Shown here in pieces: positions 3,562 through 45,131 of a stretch of 64,000 nt of DNA; the first letter of the stretch is position 1; each line of letters begins with the position of its first letter. The stretch is from an uncultured Desulfobacteraceae bacterium. GTDB lineage: Bacteria > Desulfobacterota > DSM-4660 > Desulfatiglandales > B25-G16. A program made the position numbers and the translations under genes. The stretch lies in the NCBI GenBank assembly GCA_964611035.1, contig CAZSWT010000012.1:89-64088 (forward strand), in the 5' to 3' direction. The notes under the pieces are model-generated. The model saw only the letters and a program-made list of their open reading frames with translations. It was not told the DNA's origin and did no database searches.

Positions 3562-6500
3562 ATGTCAGACAAAAGAGATAATCTGAGTATCCTGAAGAAA
3601 GGAATAAAGGATAAGATAAGGCTTATAGATGTAACTGGCCTCACTGGCTCCGCATTGGCCTACCTATTATCCCAGCTTCTTATCGAAGTAGACCATCCTT
3701 GTTTGATGGTTTTCCCCAACTCTGAGGAGGCTGGAAAATTTTACAAAGATCTGGATTTTTTTCTTTCCAACCAGAATAATGGGCCTTCCCCAGACCTTAG
3801 GAGAATATTCTTTTTTCCTTCCTATGATATTTCACCTCTCACAGGATTAAGTCCACCAAAAGAATTGGTAAGGCAAAGGATAGAGGCACTTTATGCCCTT
3901 TCAACCTTGCGAGATGCGGTTGTTGTTACATCATTAGAGGCCATTATGAGTCGCCTTTTGCCAAAAAAGATCCTTCTTAACTCGGTTGACTATATCGCTA
4001 TTAACGAGGAGATTGACAGGGATGATTTGATAAAAAAGTTGATAAGTTTTGGTTATCTTCGAACCTCATTAGTGGAGGAGAGAGGTGATTTTGCTGTAAG
4101 AGGTGGTGTTATCGATCTATACGCGCCCTTATATGATTCAGCAGTGAGGATTGAATTCTGGGGAAACACTGTGGAATCCATAAGACTCTTTAATCCAGTC
4201 AATCAAAGATCCAAATTTGATTTGAAAGAGCTCATTATTCTGCCTGCGAATGAAATCATTCTGGGACCTTCAAACATTACAAGGGCACGATCAATGGGCA
4301 GACTTCCATCGACTTTGGAATCAGGTGGGAATTTTCCAGGGATTGAGGCATGGCTGCACCATTTCTACTCCTCTCTTGATTCCATCTTTAGCTATCTTCC
4401 CAAAGAAGGTCATATTTGCGTTACCCAATCAGATACTTTTATAGAGAGAGCCAGGCCTATCTTAGAAAAGCTTAATAACGAAACAGCAAGATTTAGGGAT
4501 GAGTGCTTAGAAAAAGGAAAACCATTTCCTCAAACTGATAATAACTTTCTCGAGATACAAGAACTGAAAGTGTCCATTGCTGGATATCAAAAAATTTCTT
4601 TTTTCGATTTTACTATCAAGAGCACTTTTAAAAAGGAGGGTCTGGCAGTCGATTTCAAGGAATCAGTAATGCCAGACATGGAATATGAATCTCGGGATAT
4701 CACTCATCCAAAGGTCTCACTCACCCCTCTCGCAGTTAAGGTTAAGACATGGATTGATGAGGGAAATCAGATTGTACTCGTATGTAGGACATCACAGCAG
4801 GCAGGACGTCTAAGGGAAATTCTGCTCAATTATCAAATCAGTGTTAAAGAAATATTCCCTGATTGGTCACGGATTAAAAGGAAAAGAGGGCTATACATCT
4901 GTTTGGGATACCTCTCTCAAGGATTGAGATTTACTGCCTCAAACCTGATCATCATTACAGAAGATGAGATCTTTGGAGAAAAAAGGGGAGGGAAAAGGAG
5001 AAAAAAAGAAGACAGGGTTCAGGCAATCCCATGGACAGGATTTAGCCAATTACAGGCAGGTGATTTGGTTGTTCACCGGGATCACGGGATCGGGCGCTAT
5101 GGCGGGCTTTTAAAGATGGAGATCAGCAGCAGAATAAGGGATTTTGTAATTATTGAATATGCGGGAAACGACAGGCTTTATATCCCGGCAGATAGGATAA
5201 ACATTATCCAGAAATATATTGGTTTAGATGAAGATAATCCTCAATTAGACAGGCTTGGTGGAAGATCATGGCCTTTAGCGAAAAAGAAGGCCAGAAGGGC
5301 AATAGAAGAGATAGCCAAAGACCTTGTTAAAATCTATGCCATGAGAAAGCTTCTCAGGGGTTTTTCCTTTTCAAAGGCAGATAATTACTATAGGGAATTT
5401 GAGGCAAACTTTGATTATGAGGAAACTCCAGATCAAATCAAGGTTATTGATGATGTGCTCTCTGATATGGAGTCAGACAGACCAATGGATCGGCTCATTT
5501 GTGGTGATGTAGGTTTTGGTAAAACAGAGGTAGCTATGAGAGCTGCTTTTAAGGCTATTATGGATGGAAAACAGGTAGCTGTTCTTTCACCTACCACCGT
5601 GTTAGCTGAGCAGCATTACCAGACTTTCTCAAAACGCTTTGATTCTTATCCTTTCAGGATTGCTGTCATGAGTCGTTTCGTTTCAAAGCCAGAGCAAAAA
5701 AAAGTAATAGGTGATTTATCTTTGGGGAAGATTGATATTATTATTGGTACCCATAGAATCCTTTCTGATGATGTTGTATTTAAAGATCTGGGCCTATTTG
5801 TGATTGATGAGGAACAGCGTTTTGGTGTTAAAGACAAGGAAAAATTAAAAAAATATCGGAATTCCGTTGATATTATTGCAATGACAGCTACACCTATTCC
5901 AAGGACCCTCCATATGTCATTGATGGGGGTCAGGGACCTGAGTATAATTAAAACCCCACCTGCTGACAGGCTCTCTATTCAGACATATGTTTCCAGATTT
6001 GATGAAGATATTATATCTCATGCAATCGAAAAGGAGTTAGAGAGGGGAGGGCAGATCTTTTTTGTCCACAATCGGGTTCAAACCATTGAGATAATGGCAG
6101 ATACATTGAGCAGGCTTGTTCCCAACGCAAGGATTGACATTGCCCATGGTCAGATGAAGGAGAGGGATTTAGAGAAGGCAATGATTAAATTCTTGGCCAG
6201 GGAGACAGATGTCCTTGTGTGCACTACCATAATAGATTCAGGTCTGGATATACCTTCAGCAAATACTATAATAATTAATAAGGTAGATCGCTTTGGCCTG
6301 GCTGAGATCTATCAGCTCAGGGGGAGAGTTGGTAGGTCTAATGTGAAGGCTTATGCATACCTCCTGGTTTCAGATGGCTCTCATTTGACACGAGATGCCC
6401 AGAAAAGACTAAAGGTCTTGATGGATTTTTCGTGCTTAGGCTCGGGAGTCAACATCGCCTTAAATGATTTAAGGATAAGAGGGGGTGGAAACATACTTGG

Positions 6501-7056
6501 TTTCTCTCAATCAGGTCATATAAAGGCTATTGGCTATGAACTATATCTAAAAATGATAGAACAGGCAATTGCGGAGCTAAAAGGAGAGGTATGGCAAGAG
6601 GAAATATTTCCTGAGATACATACTGATTTACCAGTTTTTATTCCTCACAGCTATATTGAGGAGAGTGATGTCAGGCTGGATATATACAGACGCTTATCCG
6701 CCATTAAGGGTAAACATGAATTAAAGGAGATGGTACGGGAAATAGAAGATAGGTTTGGACCCTTGCCCAAAGAGGTTGTAAACCTTATCTCTGTTATTAA
6801 GATAAAGATAGGCCTGAAGAAAATTGGCTCAACAGTGTTAGACATTAAAAATGATTATATGATCTTTTCCTTCTCTAAGGATACCCATTTATCACCATCT
6901 GACTTGATTGATTTAGTTTCCAGTCATCCGGATAATTTCTCATTCTTATCCGATCAGAAACTCAAGGTTGTGAGAGAGAAAAAGAGATCCTTTTCTACCC
7001 TTGGAGAGGCAGAGGAGATAGTAAATCAATTTGATCGCTATATCGTAAAAAATTGA
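3562..7056 (+). CDS. mfd: Transcription-repair coupling factor Mfd
   Basis: 1164 aa. Has a CarD-like segment (GDLVVHRDHGIGRYGGL), helicase motifs (GDVGFGKTEV, DEEQRFGV) and a TRCF C-terminal domain. Confidence 0.95.
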   Translation: MSDKRDNLSILKKGIKDKIRLIDVTGLTGSALAYLLSQLLIEVDHPCLMVFPNSEEAGKFYKDLDFFLSNQNNGPSPDLRRIFFFPSYDISPLTGLSPPKELVRQRIEALYALSTLRDAVVVTSLEAIMSRLLPKKILLNSVDYIAINEEIDRDDLIKKLISFGYLRTSLVEERGDFAVRGGVIDLYAPLYDSAVRIEFWGNTVESIRLFNPVNQRSKFDLKELIILPANEIILGPSNITRARSMGRLPSTLESGGNFPGIEAWLHHFYSSLDSIFSYLPKEGHICVTQSDTFIERARPILEKLNNETARFRDECLEKGKPFPQTDNNFLEIQELKVSIAGYQKISFFDFTIKSTFKKEGLAVDFKESVMPDMEYESRDITHPKVSLTPLAVKVKTWIDEGNQIVLVCRTSQQAGRLREILLNYQISVKEIFPDWSRIKRKRGLYICLGYLSQGLRFTASNLIIITEDEIFGEKRGGKRRKKEDRVQAIPWTGFSQLQAGDLVVHRDHGIGRYGGLLKMEISSRIRDFVIIEYAGNDRLYIPADRINIIQKYIGLDEDNPQLDRLGGRSWPLAKKKARRAIEEIAKDLVKIYAMRKLLRGFSFSKADNYYREFEANFDYEETPDQIKVIDDVLSDMESDRPMDRLICGDVGFGKTEVAMRAAFKAIMDGKQVAVLSPTTVLAEQHYQTFSKRFDSYPFRIAVMSRFVSKPEQKKVIGDLSLGKIDIIIGTHRILSDDVVFKDLGLFVIDEEQRFGVKDKEKLKKYRNSVDIIAMTATPIPRTLHMSLMGVRDLSIIKTPPADRLSIQTYVSRFDEDIISHAIEKELERGGQIFFVHNRVQTIEIMADTLSRLVPNARIDIAHGQMKERDLEKAMIKFLARETDVLVCTTIIDSGLDIPSANTIIINKVDRFGLAEIYQLRGRVGRSNVKAYAYLLVSDGSHLTRDAQKRLKVLMDFSCLGSGVNIALNDLRIRGGGNILGFSQSGHIKAIGYELYLKMIEQAIAELKGEVWQEEIFPEIHTDLPVFIPHSYIEESDVRLDIYRRLSAIKGKHELKEMVREIEDRFGPLPKEVVNLISVIKIKIGLKKIGSTVLDIKNDYMIFSFSKDTHLSPSDLIDLVSSHPDNFSFLSDQKLKVVREKKRSFSTLGEAEEIVNQFDRYIVKN

Positions 7057-7127
7057 TCCAAATTCTTCTTGCATTCCCCATAATGATAGTATAATTTAAA
7101 TAAATTATGTCATTTTTTATAAATTTA

Positions 7128-7251
7128 TAGTATAGGAAATCCCATTTTTTAGACAGGATAGACGGGATGTTCAGGATATAAAGAAAATAAGAAAATCTTG
7201 TTAATCGTGGTAATCCTGTCAAAAAAGTTCCGCCGAAGGCGGCTAAGTTCA
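7128..7251 (+). repeat. Structured repeat unit A (R1 family)
   Basis: TAGTATAGGAAATCCCATTTTTTAGACAGGAT...ATCCTGTCAAAAAAGTTCCGCCGAAGGCGGCTAAGTTCA. It appears identical by eye to 45008-45131. Confidence 0.85.
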
Positions 7252-7259
7252 TAGTATAG

Positions 7260-8288
7260 ACTATGATAGATTTTAGGTTGTAAGGAAGTCCCTCAAGGGT
7301 TAATAAACCCGAAGATAAAAATCTTTAAAAAGGAGGAACTTCCTATGGCAATTAAAGTAAAGAGAAGCAAGATTAATTTCAAGGGAAAAATGGTTAACAT
7401 TGGTATCGACATGCATAAAAAATCCTGGCGAATCACTGCCCTTGTTGAAGGGGATATAGTTATGGCTGTAACACTTGCCAGGCCAAACTATGATTCTTTC
7501 AAGAAATTACTGGTTCAGTTTTTAGGCAATTACGTGCGCATAGTTTACGAAGCCGGTCCTGGTGGATTCGACCTATATGACAGGCTTACAGATGATGGCG
7601 TTGAATGCATTGTTACTCCTCCGTCCTTGATCCCCACCGCGAGCGGATCTAAGGTCAAAACAGATAAAAAGGATAGTTACAAGCTGGCCAGGCTGCTTGA
7701 AAGCAATATGCTTAAGCAAGTATGGGTCCTTTCTCCTGAAGAAAGGGCTCACAGGCAGTTGGCAAGGACCAGACGGCAGATAGTTAATCATCGTTCAGAT
7801 GTCATGCGCCAGATCAAGAGCCTGCTCTTGTTTCACAGCATCGAAATCCCTTTCTCAAGTCGCCAGCAGTGGACTGGGCCTTTTACAAAATGGCTTCATG
7901 GGCTCGATCTTGGCGATGAATACCTCAACAAATCACTTGAGGCCTTGATCAAGCTTTTCGATTATCTGAGCATTGAGAAAAAGAGCCTGACCCACGAGGT
8001 CATTAAACTGGCCAGGGAAGAAAAATATGCATCAAGGGTAAAGCTCCTTAAAAGTGTACCTGGTATCGGGGCATTGAGCGCTATGGAGATCCTGGTTGAG
8101 CTTCAGGATATCGCTCGTTTTAAAACAGCCGATGAGCTTGCTGCCTACCTTGGCTTGACACCATCTCAACATTCTAGTGGAGAGCATACCAGAATGGGAC
8201 ATATAACCCATGCAGGCAATGATAGGGTAAGAACCACGCTGGTTGAATCCTCCTGGATCTTGATTGGAAAGGATCCTGAAATAAAAAA
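7260..8288 (+). mobile_element. IS110-family insertion sequence (minimal extent; the right boundary could instead be 8500)
   Basis: The flanks TAGTATAG| and |GAAATCCC rejoin to the sequence seen at the uninterrupted unit junction at 8501-8516. There is no target duplication. The element carries a DEDD-type transposase. Confidence 0.75.
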
Positions 8289-8334
8289 GAAATCCCATTT
8301 TTTAGACAGGATAGACGGGATGTTCAGGATATAA
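7345..8334 (+). CDS. IS110-family (DEDD / Transposase_20) transposase; the C-terminal 14 codons are read from the flanking repeat
   Basis: Motifs NIGIDMHKKSW, YEAGPGGFDLYDRL, KTDKKDSYKLARLL and LKSVPGIGALSAMEILVELQDIARFKTADELAAYLGLTPSQHSSGEH. The tail SHFLDRIDGMFRI* is encoded by repeat-unit sequence. Confidence 0.85.
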   Translation: MAIKVKRSKINFKGKMVNIGIDMHKKSWRITALVEGDIVMAVTLARPNYDSFKKLLVQFLGNYVRIVYEAGPGGFDLYDRLTDDGVECIVTPPSLIPTASGSKVKTDKKDSYKLARLLESNMLKQVWVLSPEERAHRQLARTRRQIVNHRSDVMRQIKSLLLFHSIEIPFSSRQQWTGPFTKWLHGLDLGDEYLNKSLEALIKLFDYLSIEKKSLTHEVIKLAREEKYASRVKLLKSVPGIGALSAMEILVELQDIARFKTADELAAYLGLTPSQHSSGEHTRMGHITHAGNDRVRTTLVESSWILIGKDPEIKKKSHFLDRIDGMFRI

Positions 8335-8500
8335 AGAAAATCTTGTTAATCGTGTTAATCCCTGGCCCAGACCTGATTTATAGGCACAAGTTCCAAAAAT
8401 TAATCTCCTGAAATATTACAGCGACAATAGCTTATTCCAAGCAAGTCGCACCAGGGCGGGCCTGTCAAAAAAGTTCCCCGACATGTCGGGGCTAAGTTCA
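8289..8500 (+). repeat. Structured repeat unit B (R1 family), interrupted by a 101-bp insert
   Basis: Same unit sequence as C, but TAATC|CTGTC is split by 8361-8461. The hairpin variant is CCCCGACATGTCGGGG. Confidence 0.8.
8361..8461 (+). repeat. Nested ~101-bp element inside unit B
   Basis: Absent from units A, C and D. A related copy in opposite orientation lies at about 16914-17018 and shares GCCCGCCCTGG(T/C)GCGAC and AATCAGGTCTGGGCCAGG ends. Confidence 0.6.
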
Positions 8501-8619
8501 TAGTATAGGAAATCCCATTTTTTAGACAGGATAGACGGGATGTTCAGGATATAAAGAAAATCTTGTTAATCGTGTTAATCCTGTCGAAAAAGTTCCCCGA
8601 CATGTCGGGGCTAAGTACA
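8501..8619 (+). repeat. Structured repeat unit C (R1 family)
   Basis: Uninterrupted unit. It lacks the TAAGAAAA duplication of A and D and carries the CCCCGACATGTCGGGG hairpin. Confidence 0.85.
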
Positions 8620-8630
8620 TCGTAACTATT

Positions 8631-8780
8631 CAGCCACCAAGGCACAAAGACCCAAAGAAGAGATAAATATTATTGAATAACGTAGTTTTCTCATTAATTT
8701 CAATCCCGATTTATCGGGATTAAAAAAGCTATAATAAAGAATAATTCTCTAATCTTGGTGTCTTGGTGCCTTTGTGGCAA
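8631..8780. repeat. MITE-like element with ~30-nt imperfect inverted arms (R2 family)
   Basis: GCCACCAAGGCACAAAGACCCAAAGA...TCTTGGTGTCTTGGTGCCTTTGTGGC flank an AT-rich core containing the hairpin AATCCCGATTTATCGGGATT. Confidence 0.6.
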
Positions 8781-8806
8781 GATACCTAAGTAGATACAAT
8801 TTACCT

Positions 8807-9775
8807 ATGATTAATATAAATATTATAAGATATTTTATTTCTCTATTTTTTTGTCTCTTTCTTCTTTTTACCTTATCAGCCTGCTCTCCCACGGCAGAAT
8901 CAAATAAAACTGTAGTTATAAGAGTAGGAGATCGAGTAGTTACCGTTGGTGAAATAAAGAGAGAAGTACGCATTGCCTCAGTTGAAAATAAAGTTCCTCA
9001 GAAGGCAGTATGGTCATCTATCAATGAGCTTATAGATAGAATTGTGGATGACTCTCTTGTGCTTGAATATGGAGAAAAAAATGGTATTTTCTTAAATGAG
9101 ATTGAATTGGAAAAGGCTATACAAAATATTGTCAAGGATTATCCAGAAAATAGCTTTAATGAAATGCTTCTATCCAGGTGTATAGATTATAATGAATGGA
9201 AAGAGAGATTCAGCGAACATCTTTTAATTAAAGAGGTTGTAAAGGAGCAAACTGCGTCTCTGCCTCCTATTTCTTACCATGCGATAAAATCTTACTATCA
9301 GGAGAGGAAGGAGGATTTCTTGCATCCTTCAAGGTCCAAATTGGTGCATGTCGTTACTAAAACGAGAAAAGAGGCTGAGGCTATTCTCGCCCGCCTTAAA
9401 GGGGGAGAAGACATAAAAGAATTAGTTAAGGAACAATCTTCGGGCTCTGGAATCTATGGAAATTATGGTATACACTGGAAAGCCAAGTATATATTTCCTT
9501 CTCCCCTACCTGATATCATATTTACAATACCTGTTGGTGAAGTGAGCAGCATCATTAAAACCCCCTACGCCTTCCACATTATAAAAGTCCTCAAAAGGGA
9601 GCCACCAGGACTAAAAGATCTTTTGGAGGTAGAGGGTGAAATAGAAAATATGCTTCTTAATAAAGCAGTGGAAAGACGATATGCAGCCTGGCTTAAAGAA
9701 TTGAGGAATAATTATCCTGTTAAAGTCAACTACACCTTGTTAGATAAACTGAGTGCTGTTAATGAGAACGACTAA
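8807..9775 (+). CDS. Parvulin-type peptidylprolyl isomerase, SurA/PrsA-like lipoprotein
   Basis: Signal peptide with lipobox (LFTLSAC) and a PPIC-type domain (YAFHIIKV). I prefer the ATG at 8807, because the track start at 8774 lies inside the R2 repeat arm. Confidence 0.7.
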   Translation: MININIIRYFISLFFCLFLLFTLSACSPTAESNKTVVIRVGDRVVTVGEIKREVRIASVENKVPQKAVWSSINELIDRIVDDSLVLEYGEKNGIFLNEIELEKAIQNIVKDYPENSFNEMLLSRCIDYNEWKERFSEHLLIKEVVKEQTASLPPISYHAIKSYYQERKEDFLHPSRSKLVHVVTKTRKEAEAILARLKGGEDIKELVKEQSSGSGIYGNYGIHWKAKYIFPSPLPDIIFTIPVGEVSSIIKTPYAFHIIKVLKREPPGLKDLLEVEGEIENMLLNKAVERRYAAWLKELRNNYPVKVNYTLLDKLSAVNEND

Positions 9776-16809: not shown

Positions 16810-16890
16810 TTTAGTAGTCAAAAAGTTGAGTGGTTGAATCGTTATTAACTTAGCGACTCAACTCAAAATAATCGTAATAATTCACCTGGA

Positions 16891-17040
16891 AAAATATTTT
16901 GACAGGATTACAGGCCCGCCCTGGCGCGACAGAAAAAGCTTCGTTTAGAATTAACCGTGTTAACCATTAGATACTGGGTATTGATAGCAGTTGCTGTTGT
17001 AATCAGGTCTGGGCCAGGGATAGACAAGATTTCGATCTCC
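16891..17040 (-). repeat. Degenerate R1-type unit in reverse orientation carrying the nested element
   Basis: TTTTGACAGGATTA|CAGGCCCGCCCTGGCGCGAC...AATCAGGTCTGGGCCAGG|GATAGACAAGATTT matches the reverse complement of unit B with its insert. Confidence 0.55.
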
Positions 17041-23907: not shown

Positions 23908-24594
23908 GTGATGTCGGAATTTAAAAGGTGTAAAGGACTTAATCAAAAAGGTAAGAGATGTGGAGCGCAGGCTGTTAAAGGATCTGAATACTGTGTTGCT
24001 CACCAAGACCAAGCCCCTAAATCCCATATTAAGACTCCATTCTATAAAGATATTAAGTTTTTAATCCCAATAATTATAACCATATTTTTAGCCATTTATT
24101 TTGGGAGTAAAAGTGCTACAAAAAAAGGACAACAAATTACACACCAAGATCAAAATAAAACTCACAAAACATTAGATCGTATGGAAAAGAACATAAACAA
24201 AATTATCGATAACCACTCAAAAGCCTCTCAAGAATATTTAGAAGAAAAATACGGCTCTCTTCCAACTTTCTTTGGTGCAACGGATAAAGGTGCAATAGTT
24301 CCCTATGGTGGTAATCCGGCGGGTATAAATATCGATTGGAAATCTGCTTTAGTGTTAAATGTAACGCATAATGAAATAAAAATACAAATTCCAGACATAT
24401 CAATAAATACGGATAAGATTAAAGGATTGACATTCGTAAATATAAAATTTGTAATGATAAAAAAAGTCGGTTATACGATAGCACCCATCGGCGACAGAAG
24501 ATTTGAAATTAGGGCTACTGTTGTTGGAGTAGATCAAGGAATAACAGTGATTGGTTTATCAGTTGTTTTAAAATCTGGTTCTTCTCCAAATTAG
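23908..24594 (+). CDS. Hypothetical membrane-anchored protein with an N-terminal Cys/His cluster
   Basis: CKGLNQKGKRCGAQAVKGSEYCVAH, then one TM segment. The last 5 codons plus the stop are supplied by the MITE insertion. Confidence 0.45.
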   Translation: MMSEFKRCKGLNQKGKRCGAQAVKGSEYCVAHQDQAPKSHIKTPFYKDIKFLIPIIITIFLAIYFGSKSATKKGQQITHQDQNKTHKTLDRMEKNINKIIDNHSKASQEYLEEKYGSLPTFFGATDKGAIVPYGGNPAGINIDWKSALVLNVTHNEIKIQIPDISINTDKIKGLTFVNIKFVMIKKVGYTIAPIGDRRFEIRATVVGVDQGITVIGLSVVLKSGSSPN

Positions 24595-24863
24595 TTGGTA
24601 GAAAAATGATTTACCAAAATACAACATATTGAAATTAAATGTAATTTCACCATTAACCTTTTTGATTAATTAGGCCATATTGTTAGGTGATAATGTTACT
24701 CCAGAAATTAAGTATTAACAGGAAATTACTTTTATAGGCAACTGCTATGATGAGCCTGGTAGGTACCCATTATCGGAGTTGCTTTTAAAAGCTATACCTA
24801 CTGAAATCATTAATCAAATAAGATTTAAGCCTTAATCTTGACCAACTAATTTGGAGAAGATCC
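24577..24863 (+). mobile_element. 287-bp MITE, copy 1
   Basis: 23-nt terminal inverted repeats (TIRs) GG(T/A)TCTTCTCCAAATTAGTTGGT. Flanked by direct TAAAATCT (24569-24576 and 24864-24871). Confidence 0.85.
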
Positions 24864-44320: not shown

Positions 44321-44373
44321 TAATTCTTAATCCATCTCATTCCATGACTATGAGTGCTCCGGTCAACAATTTT

Positions 44374-44660
44374 GGATCTTCTCCAAATTAGTTGGTCAAG
44401 ATTAAGGCTTAAATCTTATTTGATTAATGATTTCAGTAGGTATAGCTTTTAAAAGCAACTCCGATAATGGGTACCTACCAGGCTCATCATAGCAGTTGCC
44501 TATAAAAGTAATTTCCTGTTAATACTTAATTTCTGGAGTAACATTATCACCTAACAATATGGCCTAATTAATCAAAAAGGTTAATGGTGAAATTACATTT
44601 AATTTCAATATGTTGTATTTTGGTAAATCATTTTTCTACCAACTAATTTGGAGAAGAACC
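44374..44660 (-). mobile_element. 287-bp MITE, copy 2 (reverse orientation)
   Basis: Reverse complement of 24577-24863, apparently identical by eye. Flanked by direct ACAATTTT (44366-44373 and 44661-44668). Confidence 0.85.
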
Positions 44661-44882
44661 ACAATTTTAAACTTTATCCTGATTGGTATTTTTACATTCA
44701 TTCATCTTTATTGTTCCAAATCCTTAACATGTTTGCAGTTGTTATTACTTGCCTTAATATTCGTAGCTTGCGTCGTAGCCGCAGCATGGGCTTGGTATGA
44801 AACGGCCGAAAATTATTATATCCATCTTACAGCAACTTATGATGAAGTAACTAAAAAAGACCATCCTAAAGAGGAGCAATAA
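44610..44882 (+). CDS. Small 2-TM hypothetical protein; the start codon and first 17 codons come from the MITE
   Basis: ORF track. The hydrophobic segments lie outside the MITE. The start is questionable. Confidence 0.3.
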   Translation: MLYFGKSFFYQLIWRRTTILNFILIGIFTFIHLYCSKSLTCLQLLLLALIFVACVVAAAWAWYETAENYYIHLTATYDEVTKKDHPKEEQ

Positions 44883-44959: not shown

Positions 44960-45007
44960 GCCTACTGTCAGAACGGGTATATGTGTGCCCTGTCTCTGCT
45001 AACTTGA

Positions 45008-45131
45008 TAGTATAGGAAATCCCATTTTTTAGACAGGATAGACGGGATGTTCAGGATATAAAGAAAATAAGAAAATCTTGTTAATCGTGGTAATCCTGTC
45101 AAAAAAGTTCCGCCGAAGGCGGCTAAGTTCA
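45008..45131 (+). repeat. Structured repeat unit D (R1 family), solo copy
   Basis: Appears identical by eye to unit A (7128-7251). Confidence 0.85.

What the first reader, a model, noticed from the sequence alone, without database searches (positions are those of the whole stretch)
7128..8619. IS110-family element inserted exactly at a unit boundary of a tandem structured-repeat array, with its ORF ending inside the repeat
Units A (7128-7251), B (7252-7259 plus 8289-8500) and C (8501-8619) read TAGTATAG-GAAATCCCATTTTTTAGACAGGAT...ATCCTGTC(A/G)AAAAAGTTCC-[GC hairpin]-CTAAGT(T/A)CA. Comparing the uninterrupted B/C junction (CTAAGTTCATAGTATAG|GAAATCCC) with the two IS flanks shows that 7260-8288 sits precisely between TAGTATAG and GAAATCCC, with no target duplication. 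This is the behaviour known for DEDD/IS110 recombinases that home to repeated palindromic elements.

Three points are odd:
- The transposase ORF does not stop within 7260-8288. Its last 14 codons (SHFLDRIDGMFRI*) are repeat-unit sequence.
- Only ~50 residues follow the SSG serine motif, which seems short for the family.
- The 5' non-coding end is only 85 nt, too short for a bridge RNA of the size described for IS621.

Any guide RNA should therefore lie 3' of the ORF (the IS1111-like layout), which is exactly where unit B lies. An alternative parse is that the unit is the element's own structured right end. In that case the IS spans 7260-8500 with TAGTATAG on both sides, and units A, C and D are transposase-less derivatives.
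Basis: partly seen in the sequence, partly recalled or inferred. Interest (0 to 1): 0.7.

Follow-up and report, generated by a model that had tools for sequence, protein, structure and literature searches.

The report
Broken IS110-family element in its repeat target
This is a dead, 3'-truncated copy of an RNA-guided (IS110/IS1111-type) insertion sequence lying in the short repeated sequence it normally homes to; the deletion explains its three odd features, so the locus is ordinary.

Summary
Four copies of a ~125-nt structured repeat are present. An IS110-family element sits between TAGTATAG and GAAATCCC of unit B, and its ORF ends inside the repeat.

The three oddities come from one event: this copy has lost its 3' ~0.6 kb.
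- Homologues are 359-363 aa. The closest (96% identical) matches up to residue 316 and then continues for 47 more residues.
- Intact copies carry a ~470-nt 3' non-coding region ending ...TTGACAAATCTACATAGCAG, followed in two cases by (G)AAATCCCATTTT.
- The window junction shares a 5-nt GAAAT microhomology with that right-end junction.

In relatives the 3' region encodes a conserved ~140-nt two-loop RNA.
- The variable loop strands co-vary with the flanks of each lineage.
- In the window's lineage they match TATAG|GAAATC, which occurs in the window only in the units.
- The window has no copy of this RNA or of the right end.

So the unit is the target. The same truncated allele occurs without gaps at the same mfd-surA locus in six metagenomes, so it is a fixed fossil.

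Left unexplained are the repeat unit's own origin and an odd complementarity rule in its left flank.

The parts
7120..7251 (+). Repeat unit A: left 8-mer TAAATTTA, then TAGTATAG, a long imperfect hairpin, a GC hairpin and CTAAGTTCA
   Evidence: 98% identical to unit D (family D2). RNA fold z-score -4.0 for the near-identical unit D on the + strand.
7252..7259 (+). First 8 nt of unit B (TAGTATAG), holding the left target and the inferred AG core (7258-7259). This is the left junction with the IS.
   Evidence: The target register is inferred from the guide matches in relatives. This junction reads TATAG|ACTATG, whereas L025, L030, L031 and L078 read TATAGAG|ACTATG.
7260..8293 (+). Truncated IS110/IS1111-type element: left end with subterminal repeat CTATGATAGATTT (7261-7273), 85-nt leader and tnp codons 1-316. 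The right ~0.6 kb is missing (47 codons, the guide-RNA gene and the right end).
   Evidence: 96-97% DNA identity to intact copies L001 and L030 up to 8293, then divergence. NCBIfam NF033542 matches positions 2-301 of 343 here, against 2-341 in P0001.
7345..8334 (+). Chimeric ORF (329 aa): 316 transposase residues plus 13 residues read from unit B
8289..8293 (+). GAAAT microhomology at the deletion junction. It is shared by the tnp sequence AAAAAAGAAATACGAT and the intact right junction CATAGCAG|GAAATCCC.
8289..8500 (+). Remainder of unit B (the right target GAAATC is at 8289-8294)
8362..8462 (+). Nested ~100-nt element of a second repeat family (CTGGCCCAGACCTG ... CGCACCAGGGCGGGC), inserted in the ATCC|TGTC arm motif of unit B
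   Evidence: (I2). Eleven hits (nine distinct sites), in either orientation relative to the unit.
8501..8619 (+). Repeat unit C, with an intact target TATAGGAAATC at 8504-8514
   Evidence: Fold z-score -5.4.
45000..45131 (+). Solitary repeat unit D, with an intact target TATAGGAAATC at 45011-45021
16885..17040 (+). Diverged unit-like sequence that carries another copy of the nested ~100-nt element (16915-17016, inverted relative to the copy in unit B)
   Evidence: (I2)

Best explanation
An IS110-family element of the IS1111-like layout once inserted into its cognate target, TAT-AG-GAAATC, inside unit B of a pre-existing head-to-tail array of a dispersed ~125-nt repeat. That layout means subterminal inverted repeats and a guide RNA gene 3' of the recombinase gene.

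Targeting in this family is RNA-guided. The 3' non-coding region encodes a ~140-nt RNA with two internal loops.
- In the first loop, the 5' strand is complementary to the top strand of core plus right flank. The 3' strand has the same sense as left flank plus core.
- The second loop is invariant and matches the element's own ends.

Later a ~0.6-kb deletion joined a GAAAT inside tnp to the GAAAT that starts the right flank. It removed the last 47 codons, the RNA gene and the right end. The copy can therefore no longer make a complete recombinase, be guided, or be recognised as a donor. It is an immobile fossil, and its ORF simply runs on into unit B.

Shown here: the truncation, the target identity, the RNA's conservation, its guide-flank co-variation, and its absence from the window.

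Inferred: the AG core, the promoter formed at the circle junction, the donor-loop assignment, and the microhomology mechanism of the deletion.
For: 1. Truncation. Full-length homologues are 359-363 aa. P0001 is identical in the C-terminal region up to K316 (96% identity overall) and then continues YDNIKYRSGGKRAI.... DNA identity to L001 and L030 stops at 8293. The NCBIfam model lacks positions 302-343.

2. Intact right end. L001 ends ...TTGACAAATCTACATAGCAG|GAAATCCCATT. L052 ends ...CATAGCAG|AAATCCCATTTT. L025, L030, L031 and L078 carry the same left end after ...GTATAGAG.

3. The unit is not part of the IS. Five insertions of 75-77% relatives in long contigs have other flanks that share only ..ATAGAG| and |GAAAnC. 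L030 is followed by GAAATCCCCCTCTC, which is not unit sequence beyond GAAATCC.

4. Guide RNA.
- The 17-sequence alignment has variable columns only in the two strands of loop 1.
- The RNAalifold consensus gives two stem / internal-loop / hairpin modules with compensatory pairs 17-66, 33-51 and 80-138.
- Cognate guide-flank matches are longer than non-cognate ones: 6.6 vs 3.8 nt (p = 1.6e-9) and 6.3 vs 4.4 nt (p = 1.5e-5).
- The order of the two matches, top-strand match 5' of bottom-strand match with overlap in the target, is the one reported for IS1111-type seekRNAs (PMC11187229).

5. Absence in the window. There is no RNA block and no right end. The covariance model finds nothing, or noise only with filters off, while it finds 40 relatives.

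6. Target. Exact TATAGGAAATC occurs in the window only in units A, C and D.

7. Not an assembly artefact. The identical 329-aa product lies on 12 contigs. The six contigs retrieved, each from a different metagenome sample, are collinear with the window at 99.3-99.8% with 0 gaps.
Against: - No intact copy from the very same genome was available. The closest intact copies are 94-97% identical metagenome contigs.
- The window's left junction lacks one AG compared with four related insertions. So either a second small lesion occurred or the crossover register differed.
- The left guide of this lineage (UUUAUAGAG) matches the unit's left side over only 5 nt (TATAG).
- No transcript or activity data exist for any member of this clade.
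Confidence: 0.9

Rival explanations
1. One reading: the element is complete, has an unusually short recombinase, and uses unit B, immediately 3' of the ORF, as its guide (seek/bridge) RNA.
For: The unit is strongly structured (z-score -4 to -5.4), and it lies where IS1111-type elements keep their RNA.
Against: - All homologues are about 45 aa longer and diverge from the window exactly at the junction.
- The family's real RNA is a different, conserved 140-nt sequence found 3' of tnp in 40 relatives and absent here.
- Units occur alone in at least 9 genomes without any IS.
Confidence: 0.02
2. One reading: the unit is the element's own structured right end (IS = 7260-8500), and units A, C and D are transposase-less derivatives. 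An ISPpu9/Ssr9-like modular arrangement would be the analogue.
For: - ISPpu9 shows that an RNA module 3' of an IS110-family gene can move on its own (PMC12288879).
- In L001 and L052 the intact IS is directly followed by unit sequence.
Against: - The intact right end (...TTGACAAATCTACATAGCAG, with a subterminal repeat matching the left end) precedes the unit.
- Relatives have that same right end followed by unrelated DNA.
- The invariant donor loop of the RNA matches ATAGCAG, not the unit's end TAAGTTCA.
- Deriving solo units would need precise loss of 7260 to the right end in every case.
Confidence: 0.03
3. The deletion was not random slippage. It was triggered by the recombinase itself: abortive excision nicks or breaks the right junction, and the break is repaired on the adjacent microhomology. 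This would make the right junction a deletion hot spot.
For: Two independent truncated copies end exactly at the IS/right-flank junction, each with 5-nt microhomology. The window has GAAAT, about 1030 nt into the IS. L025 has GGAAA, only about 143 nt into the IS.
Against: - A crossover at the inferred AG core predicts AAAAAAGGAAATC and CAAGGAAATC, not the observed AAAAAAGAAATC and CAAGGGAAATC. So this is not a simple recombinase-mediated exchange.
- Other truncated copies (L078, L077, L068, L090, L057, L060) break at various points into unrelated DNA.
- There is an ascertainment bias, because the loci were found with a 24-mer that starts at the junction.
Confidence: 0.2
4. The junction is an assembly chimera created by repeats.
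For: Several contigs with this gene end inside the unit array, which shows that assemblers struggle here.
Against: - The shared sequence at the junction is only 5 nt.
- Six independently assembled metagenome contigs carry the same junction, and one (L110, 25 kb) runs through the whole array with 0 gaps.
Confidence: 0.02

Closest known systems
IS1111-group elements with a seekRNA (ISEc11, ISPa11, ISKpn4; Siddiquee et al. 2024, PMC11187229)
   Same: - DEDD recombinase with the GL-P----SG motif (GLTPSQHSSG).
- Subterminal inverted repeats (CTATG(A)TAGATTT).
- Long non-coding region downstream of tnp.
- An RNA whose top-strand match lies 5' of the bottom-strand match, with the two matches overlapping in the target.
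- Insertion into a repeated sequence without target duplication.
   Different: - The recombinase is 359 aa, against 330-350 reported for the group.
- It is less than 41% identical to any plasmid-borne homologue.
- The 3' region is ~470 nt and also holds a donor-type second loop and a further conserved hairpin.
- The window copy has lost all of this.
IS621 / ISCro4 bridge recombinases with bridge RNA (IS110 group; PDB 8WT6, 9T56)
   Same: - The RNA has two internal loops, one variable (target) and one invariant (donor).
- A core dinucleotide is repeated at both junctions.
- There are dinucleotides after the left guides that could act as handshake guides.
- A -35 box near the right end could form a promoter across the circle junction.
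   Different: - The RNA lies 3' rather than 5' of the gene.
- The inferred core is AG, not CT.
- Only the C-terminal domain aligns by sequence (E about 1e-7 to 1e-8).
ISPpu9 / ISPpu10 of Pseudomonas putida (IS110 family in REP sequences; PMC12288879)
   Same: An IS110-family element that homes into a dispersed structured intergenic repeat. It is the relevant precedent for the idea that a small RNA module next to the gene might move separately.
   Different: Here the neighbouring unit is not bounded by the element's end sequences and is not a module of it. Relatives lack it.
REP/BIME-type repeats and MITEs (as a comparison for the unit)
   Same: A dispersed, intergenic, hairpin-forming repeat that sometimes forms arrays and is used as a landing site by IS110-family elements.
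   Different: - It is ~125 nt long, with three 9-mer repeats in each arm.
- There is no target-site duplication.
- Its 3' end is constant (TAAGTTCA) and its left flank follows TAANTTN'A.
- No associated transposase was identified.

Membership tests
IS110 family (DEDD / bridge-type recombinase elements) | N-terminal RuvC-like DEDD domain | tested here: met
   PF01548 at E = 1.9e-12. NF033542 'IS110 family RNA-guided transposase' scores 192 bits against a cut-off of 140.
IS110 family (DEDD / bridge-type recombinase elements) | C-terminal Tnp domain with the conserved serine (G..P....SG), complete to its C-terminus | tested here: not met
   The motif GLTPSQHSSG is present (residues 270-279) and PF02371 matches positions 2-85 of 87. 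However, the last 47 residues, conserved in all homologues (…GGKRAIVAVAR.LS.RIRRML…), are missing. NF033542 positions 302-343 are unmatched.
IS110 family (DEDD / bridge-type recombinase elements) | A non-coding guide RNA with target- and donor-binding loops encoded in the element | tested here: not met
   Absent from the window. Present in 40 related loci, at 130-165 bits in 30 close relatives, with guide-flank co-variation.
IS110 family (DEDD / bridge-type recombinase elements) | Both element ends present, with the same core dinucleotide at each junction | tested here: not met
   The left end is present, but one AG shorter than in L025, L030, L031 and L078. The right end ...CTTGACAAATCTACATAGCAG is absent.
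IS110 family (DEDD / bridge-type recombinase elements) | Sequence-specific insertion without target-site duplication | tested here: met
   At least six related insertions lie at (T)ATAG(AG)|(G)AAATCC: the window, L025, L030, L031 and L078 (left junction) and L001, L030 and L052 (right junction).
IS1111 subgroup | Subterminal inverted repeats | tested here: met
   The left end AGA-CTATGATAGATTT compares with the reverse complement of the right end CTG-CTATG-TAGATTT in L001 (right end only), L030 and the relatives. Only the left copy survives in the window (7261-7273).
IS1111 subgroup | The longer non-coding region lies downstream of tnp and holds the seekRNA, with the top-strand match 5' of the bottom-strand match | tested here: met
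   Met in intact relatives, compared with the published rule. The region is deleted in the window copy.
IS1111 subgroup | Recombinase related over its full length to IS1111-type transposases (phylogenetic placement) | not tested
The length of 359 aa is slightly above the 330-350 aa quoted for the group.
ISPpu9/Ssr9-like modular element (unit as a hitch-hiking module) | The module is bounded by the same end sequences that the recombinase and RNA recognise | tested here: not met
   The unit's ends (TAGTATAG......TAAGTTCA) do not match the invariant donor loop (AAATCTCT / AATAGCAGG) or the IS ends.
MITE (for the repeat unit) | Terminal inverted repeats plus a target-site duplication | tested here: not met
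   The arms are inverted repeats, but the flanks are not duplicated. The left 8-mer varies while the right end is constant, and the right flanks are unrelated.

The most novel reading that the evidence does not exclude
The ~125-nt unit is itself a recently active non-autonomous element with an undescribed insertion rule.
- It always follows an 8-mer TAANTTN'A whose two variable positions are complementary to each other.
- It ends in such an 8-mer (TAAGTTCA), which would explain the head-to-tail arrays.
- It serves as a landing pad for at least two other site-specific elements: the RNA-guided IS, and a ~100-nt element that targets ATCC|TGTC.

The IS fossil would then be a by-product of a layered system of nested site-specific elements in Desulfobacteraceae.
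Probability: 0.2. Interest if true: 0.55.

Novelty: new member of a known kind. Interest (0 to 1): 0.2.

Why it matters
For the finding as submitted, the result is mainly a correction: nothing about this copy challenges what is known of IS110/IS1111 elements. Its short recombinase, its ORF running into the repeat and its missing guide RNA are scars of a deletion.

The work does add three modest things.
- It gives a worked natural example, in uncultured Desulfobacteraceae, of guide-target co-variation for a 3'-encoded two-loop RNA across about 15 lineages. This could supply further programmable recombinase/RNA pairs.
- It shows how such elements decay in place and remain fixed in a population.
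- It points to a family of nested small repeats whose own mobility is unexplained.

Tried and rejected
- Rfam, at gathering thresholds on the window and L001 and at E-value threshold on unit D: nothing except a chance miRNA hit at E = 0.58.
- Covariance model of the family RNA against the window, with default filters and with filters off: noise only.
- Unit as a structured RNA with co-variation: 15 copies are almost invariant and only one pair shows a double change, so this is uninformative. The + strand folds better than the - strand. The - strand of each unit carries a terminator-like hairpin plus T-run. No function could be assigned.
- Promoter scan: no sigma-70-like site in the units or upstream of the truncated tnp.
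- Unit orientation relative to genes: a same-strand start within 150 nt downstream in about 10 of 22 copies, and a divergent start to the left in 7 of 22. There is no clear rule.
- Recombinase-mediated crossover at the AG core as the cause of the deletion: rejected, because it predicts junction sequences one G different from those observed in the window and in L025.
- General rule that truncated copies end at the right junction: rejected, since six other truncated copies break elsewhere.
- A named IS: plasmid tblastn gives at most 41% identity, annotated only as 'IS110 family transposase'.
- A full-length, transposase-bearing version of the unit: L011, L016 and L021 hold only truncated units joined to other small repeats.
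- Explanations of the N/N' rule as a target duplication, a palindrome, a hairpin or a serine-recombinase-type dyad: none fits all positions.
Full report
**Observation.**
- The 24-mer GAAATCCCATTTTTTAGACAGGAT occurs four times on the + strand (7136, 8289, 8509, 45016; none expected by chance). The right-arm motif and the GC hairpins follow at the stated distances.
- A 1,029-nt segment (7260-8288) separates TAGTATAG from GAAATCCC of unit B. These two are contiguous at the B/C junction.
- ORF 7345-8334 (329 aa) has the two Pfam domains of IS110-family transposases. It ends with 13 codons read from the unit.
- Unit B is about 100 nt longer than the others. It contains a nested copy (8362-8462) of a second small repeat, which also occurs inverted near 16.9 kb.

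**The copy is truncated.**
- A protein search returned over 100 close homologues, nearly all of 359 aa.
- The closest, P0001 (363 aa, 96% identical), matches the window protein up to ...KDPEIKKK (residue 316). It then continues YDNIKYRSGGKRAIIAVTRTLSARIRRMLLDQIPY..., a stretch conserved in all eight aligned sequences.
- Its contig L001 holds the gene followed by ~470 nt of non-coding DNA ending ...ACTTGACAAATCTACATAGCAG|GAAATCCCATT.
- The DNA alignment shows 96-97% identity from 7265 to 8293 and no similarity beyond.
- The two sequences joined in the window share GAAAT: AAAAAAGAAATACGAT within tnp and CATAGCAGGAAATCCC at the intact right junction. The simplest history is therefore a ~0.6-kb deletion on a 5-nt microhomology.
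- NCBIfam's IS110 model is matched over positions 2-341 of 343 by P0001, but only 2-301 by the window protein.

**True ends and target.**
- Four identical copies of a 75% relative in long contigs (L002-L005), and a fifth insertion of a related element (L006), define the element. It runs from (AG)ACTATGAT(G/A)G... to ...C(C/T)ACATAGCAG, with flanks (A/T)ATATAGAG| and |GAAAnC.
- Eighty further metagenome loci show the same pattern. The left flank always ends AGAG and the right end always ends ...ATAGCAG.
- The ends carry subterminal inverted repeats (CTATG(A)TAGATTT). A conserved TTGAC(A/T) box lies 14 nt from the right end. On circularisation it would sit 18 nt from TATGAT in the left end. This junction promoter is an inference.
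- Copies of the window's own lineage sit after ...GTATAGAG (L025, L030, L031, L078) and before (G)AAATCCC (L001, L030, L052).
- L030 and the more distant relatives are followed by DNA that is not the unit. So the unit is not part of the element.
- The window's left junction (TATAG|ACTATG) has one AG fewer than the other four. This is either a 2-nt loss or a crossover at the other AG of the AGAG run.

**The guide RNA.**
- Aligning the 3' regions of about 19 lineages showed a conserved block about 110-250 nt after the stop codon.
- In a 17-sequence alignment the only variable columns are two short stretches.
- RNAalifold places these two stretches on the two strands of a large internal loop. That loop lies in a first stem / loop / hairpin module.
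- A second module of the same shape follows. Its loop strands are invariant: ...AAAUCUCU... and ...AAUAGCAGG..., the latter identical to the right end.
- Pairs 17-66, 33-51, 80-138 and 81-137 show double compensatory changes.
- The 5' strand of loop 1 is the reverse complement of AG plus the right flank. The 3' strand repeats the left flank plus AG.
- Examples: L037 rc = AGGGGACGTA against flank AGGGGACGTAC; L043 AGGTAAACTT; L053 AGGAAACCTT; L001 AGGAAATC.
- Cognate pairs give longer contiguous matches than non-cognate pairs: 6.6 vs 3.8 nt (p = 1.6e-9) and 6.3 vs 4.4 nt (p = 1.5e-5). The samples are not fully independent.
- This order, top-strand match first with the matches overlapping in the target, is what Siddiquee et al. 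report for IS1111-type seekRNAs. The two-loop shape parallels the IS621 bridge RNA.
- For the window's lineage the guides specify TATAG|GAAATC. Exact TATAGGAAATC occurs in the window only in units A, C and D.

**Absence from the window.**
- Neither the RNA block nor the right end is present with up to 3 mismatches.
- A covariance model built from the alignment finds nothing in 64 kb. With filters off it finds only noise, at most 7.3 bits, over 6900-8900 including unit B.
- The same model detects 40 related loci. Thirty close relatives score 130-165 bits and one copy cut by a contig end scores 96 bits. Nine more distant relatives (about 38-59% protein identity) score 26-41 bits. Every hit is on the tnp strand and, in all those checked against the gene coordinates, 3' of the gene.
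- Hence unit B is not the guide RNA, and this copy has no guide.

**Population evidence.** The exact 329-aa product lies on 12 contigs. The six retrieved, each from a different JGI metagenome sample, are collinear with the window at 99.3-99.8% identity and 0 gaps. One 25-kb contig spans the whole mfd - unit A - IS - unit B - unit C - surA region. The truncated allele is therefore real and fixed, not a chimera.

**The unit.**
- The 24-mer is found in 23 contigs of at least 9 Desulfobacteraceae MAGs.
- Copies are nearly identical across species, solitary or in tandem. Many carry small nested inserts.
- The unit is a long imperfect hairpin made of three 9-mers per arm, followed by a GC hairpin and CTAAGTTCA.
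- It folds better on the + strand (z-score -4 to -5.4) than on the - strand. The - strand carries a terminator-like hairpin with a T-run.
- It matches no Rfam family. It shows too little variation to test co-variation.
- I treat it as a REP/MITE-like repeat of unknown function that serves as the IS target.

**Verdict.**
- The three oddities are deletion scars, and both proposed roles for the unit are refuted by intact relatives.
- The element belongs to an unnamed clade. It is less than 41% identical to any plasmid-borne homologue. Only its C-terminal domain aligns, distantly, to IS621 and ISCro4.
- It is a new member of a known kind, and this copy is a fossil. Interest is low.
- The open questions concern the unit's own mobility and the possible clustering of deletions at the right junction. 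The second rests on only two cases and is subject to ascertainment bias.

Noticed in passing
window 7120-7127, 45000-45007, 8493-8500; L007-L029 unit left flanks: The 8 nt before TAGTATAG read T-A-A-N-T-T-N'-A. The two variable positions are Watson-Crick complementary in every copy inspected: about 25 by eye, and 21 of 21 strict matches counted. In background occurrences of the same 8-mer the figure is 31% (65 of 210). The unit's own 3' end, TAAGTTCA, obeys the same rule. No mechanism I tried explains it.
   Followed up: partly
window 8362-8462 and 16915-17016 (-); L010, L011, L013, L017, L025, L027: A second ~100-nt repeat family has conserved ends (CTGGCCCAGACCTG ... CGC[GA]CCAGGGC[GA]GGC) and a diverged ~70-nt middle. 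It is usually inserted in the ATCC|TGTC motif of the unit's arms, in a fixed orientation relative to that motif.
   Followed up: partly
L025 6329-6477 (- strand) and window 8289-8293: A second, independent truncated copy of the same IS retains only 143 nt and joins ...ATTTCAAGG to GAAATCCC of a unit, with GGAAA microhomology. Both deletions end exactly at the IS / right-flank junction, which suggests a deletion hot spot there.
   Followed up: partly
L001 ~1484-1552 and the equivalent region in L002, L006, L030-L061: Between the guide RNA and the right end, intact relatives carry a ~70-nt hairpin. Its 17-20-bp stem changes by compensatory substitutions, while its loop (CTCCGACGAGCT...GGCCCATTCTC) is conserved. 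Its function is unknown.
   Followed up: no
window 24577-24863 and 44365-44672: Two 98% identical copies of a ~290-nt MITE-like element with 23-bp terminal inverted repeats (GGTTCTTCTCCAAATTAGTTGGT) lie in opposite orientation 19.5 kb apart. Unit D lies 340 nt from the second copy.
   Followed up: partly
window 7258-7261: The left junction reads TATAG|ACTATG. Four other insertions of this lineage read TATAGAG|ACTATG. One AG of the AGAG run is missing, either through a 2-nt loss or an alternative crossover register.
   Followed up: partly
window 7824-7905: This is a patch of much lower identity to L001 inside an otherwise ~97% identical tnp gene. It suggests mosaic recombination between IS variants.
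   Followed up: no
L011 ~250-300, L016 ~4270-4290, L052 ~1540-1560: Another short shared motif (TCTGCGTCCTAATTTAA / ATCTGCGTCCTAATATAA) follows truncated units in three unrelated contigs. It points to yet another small repeat family in these genomes.
   Followed up: no
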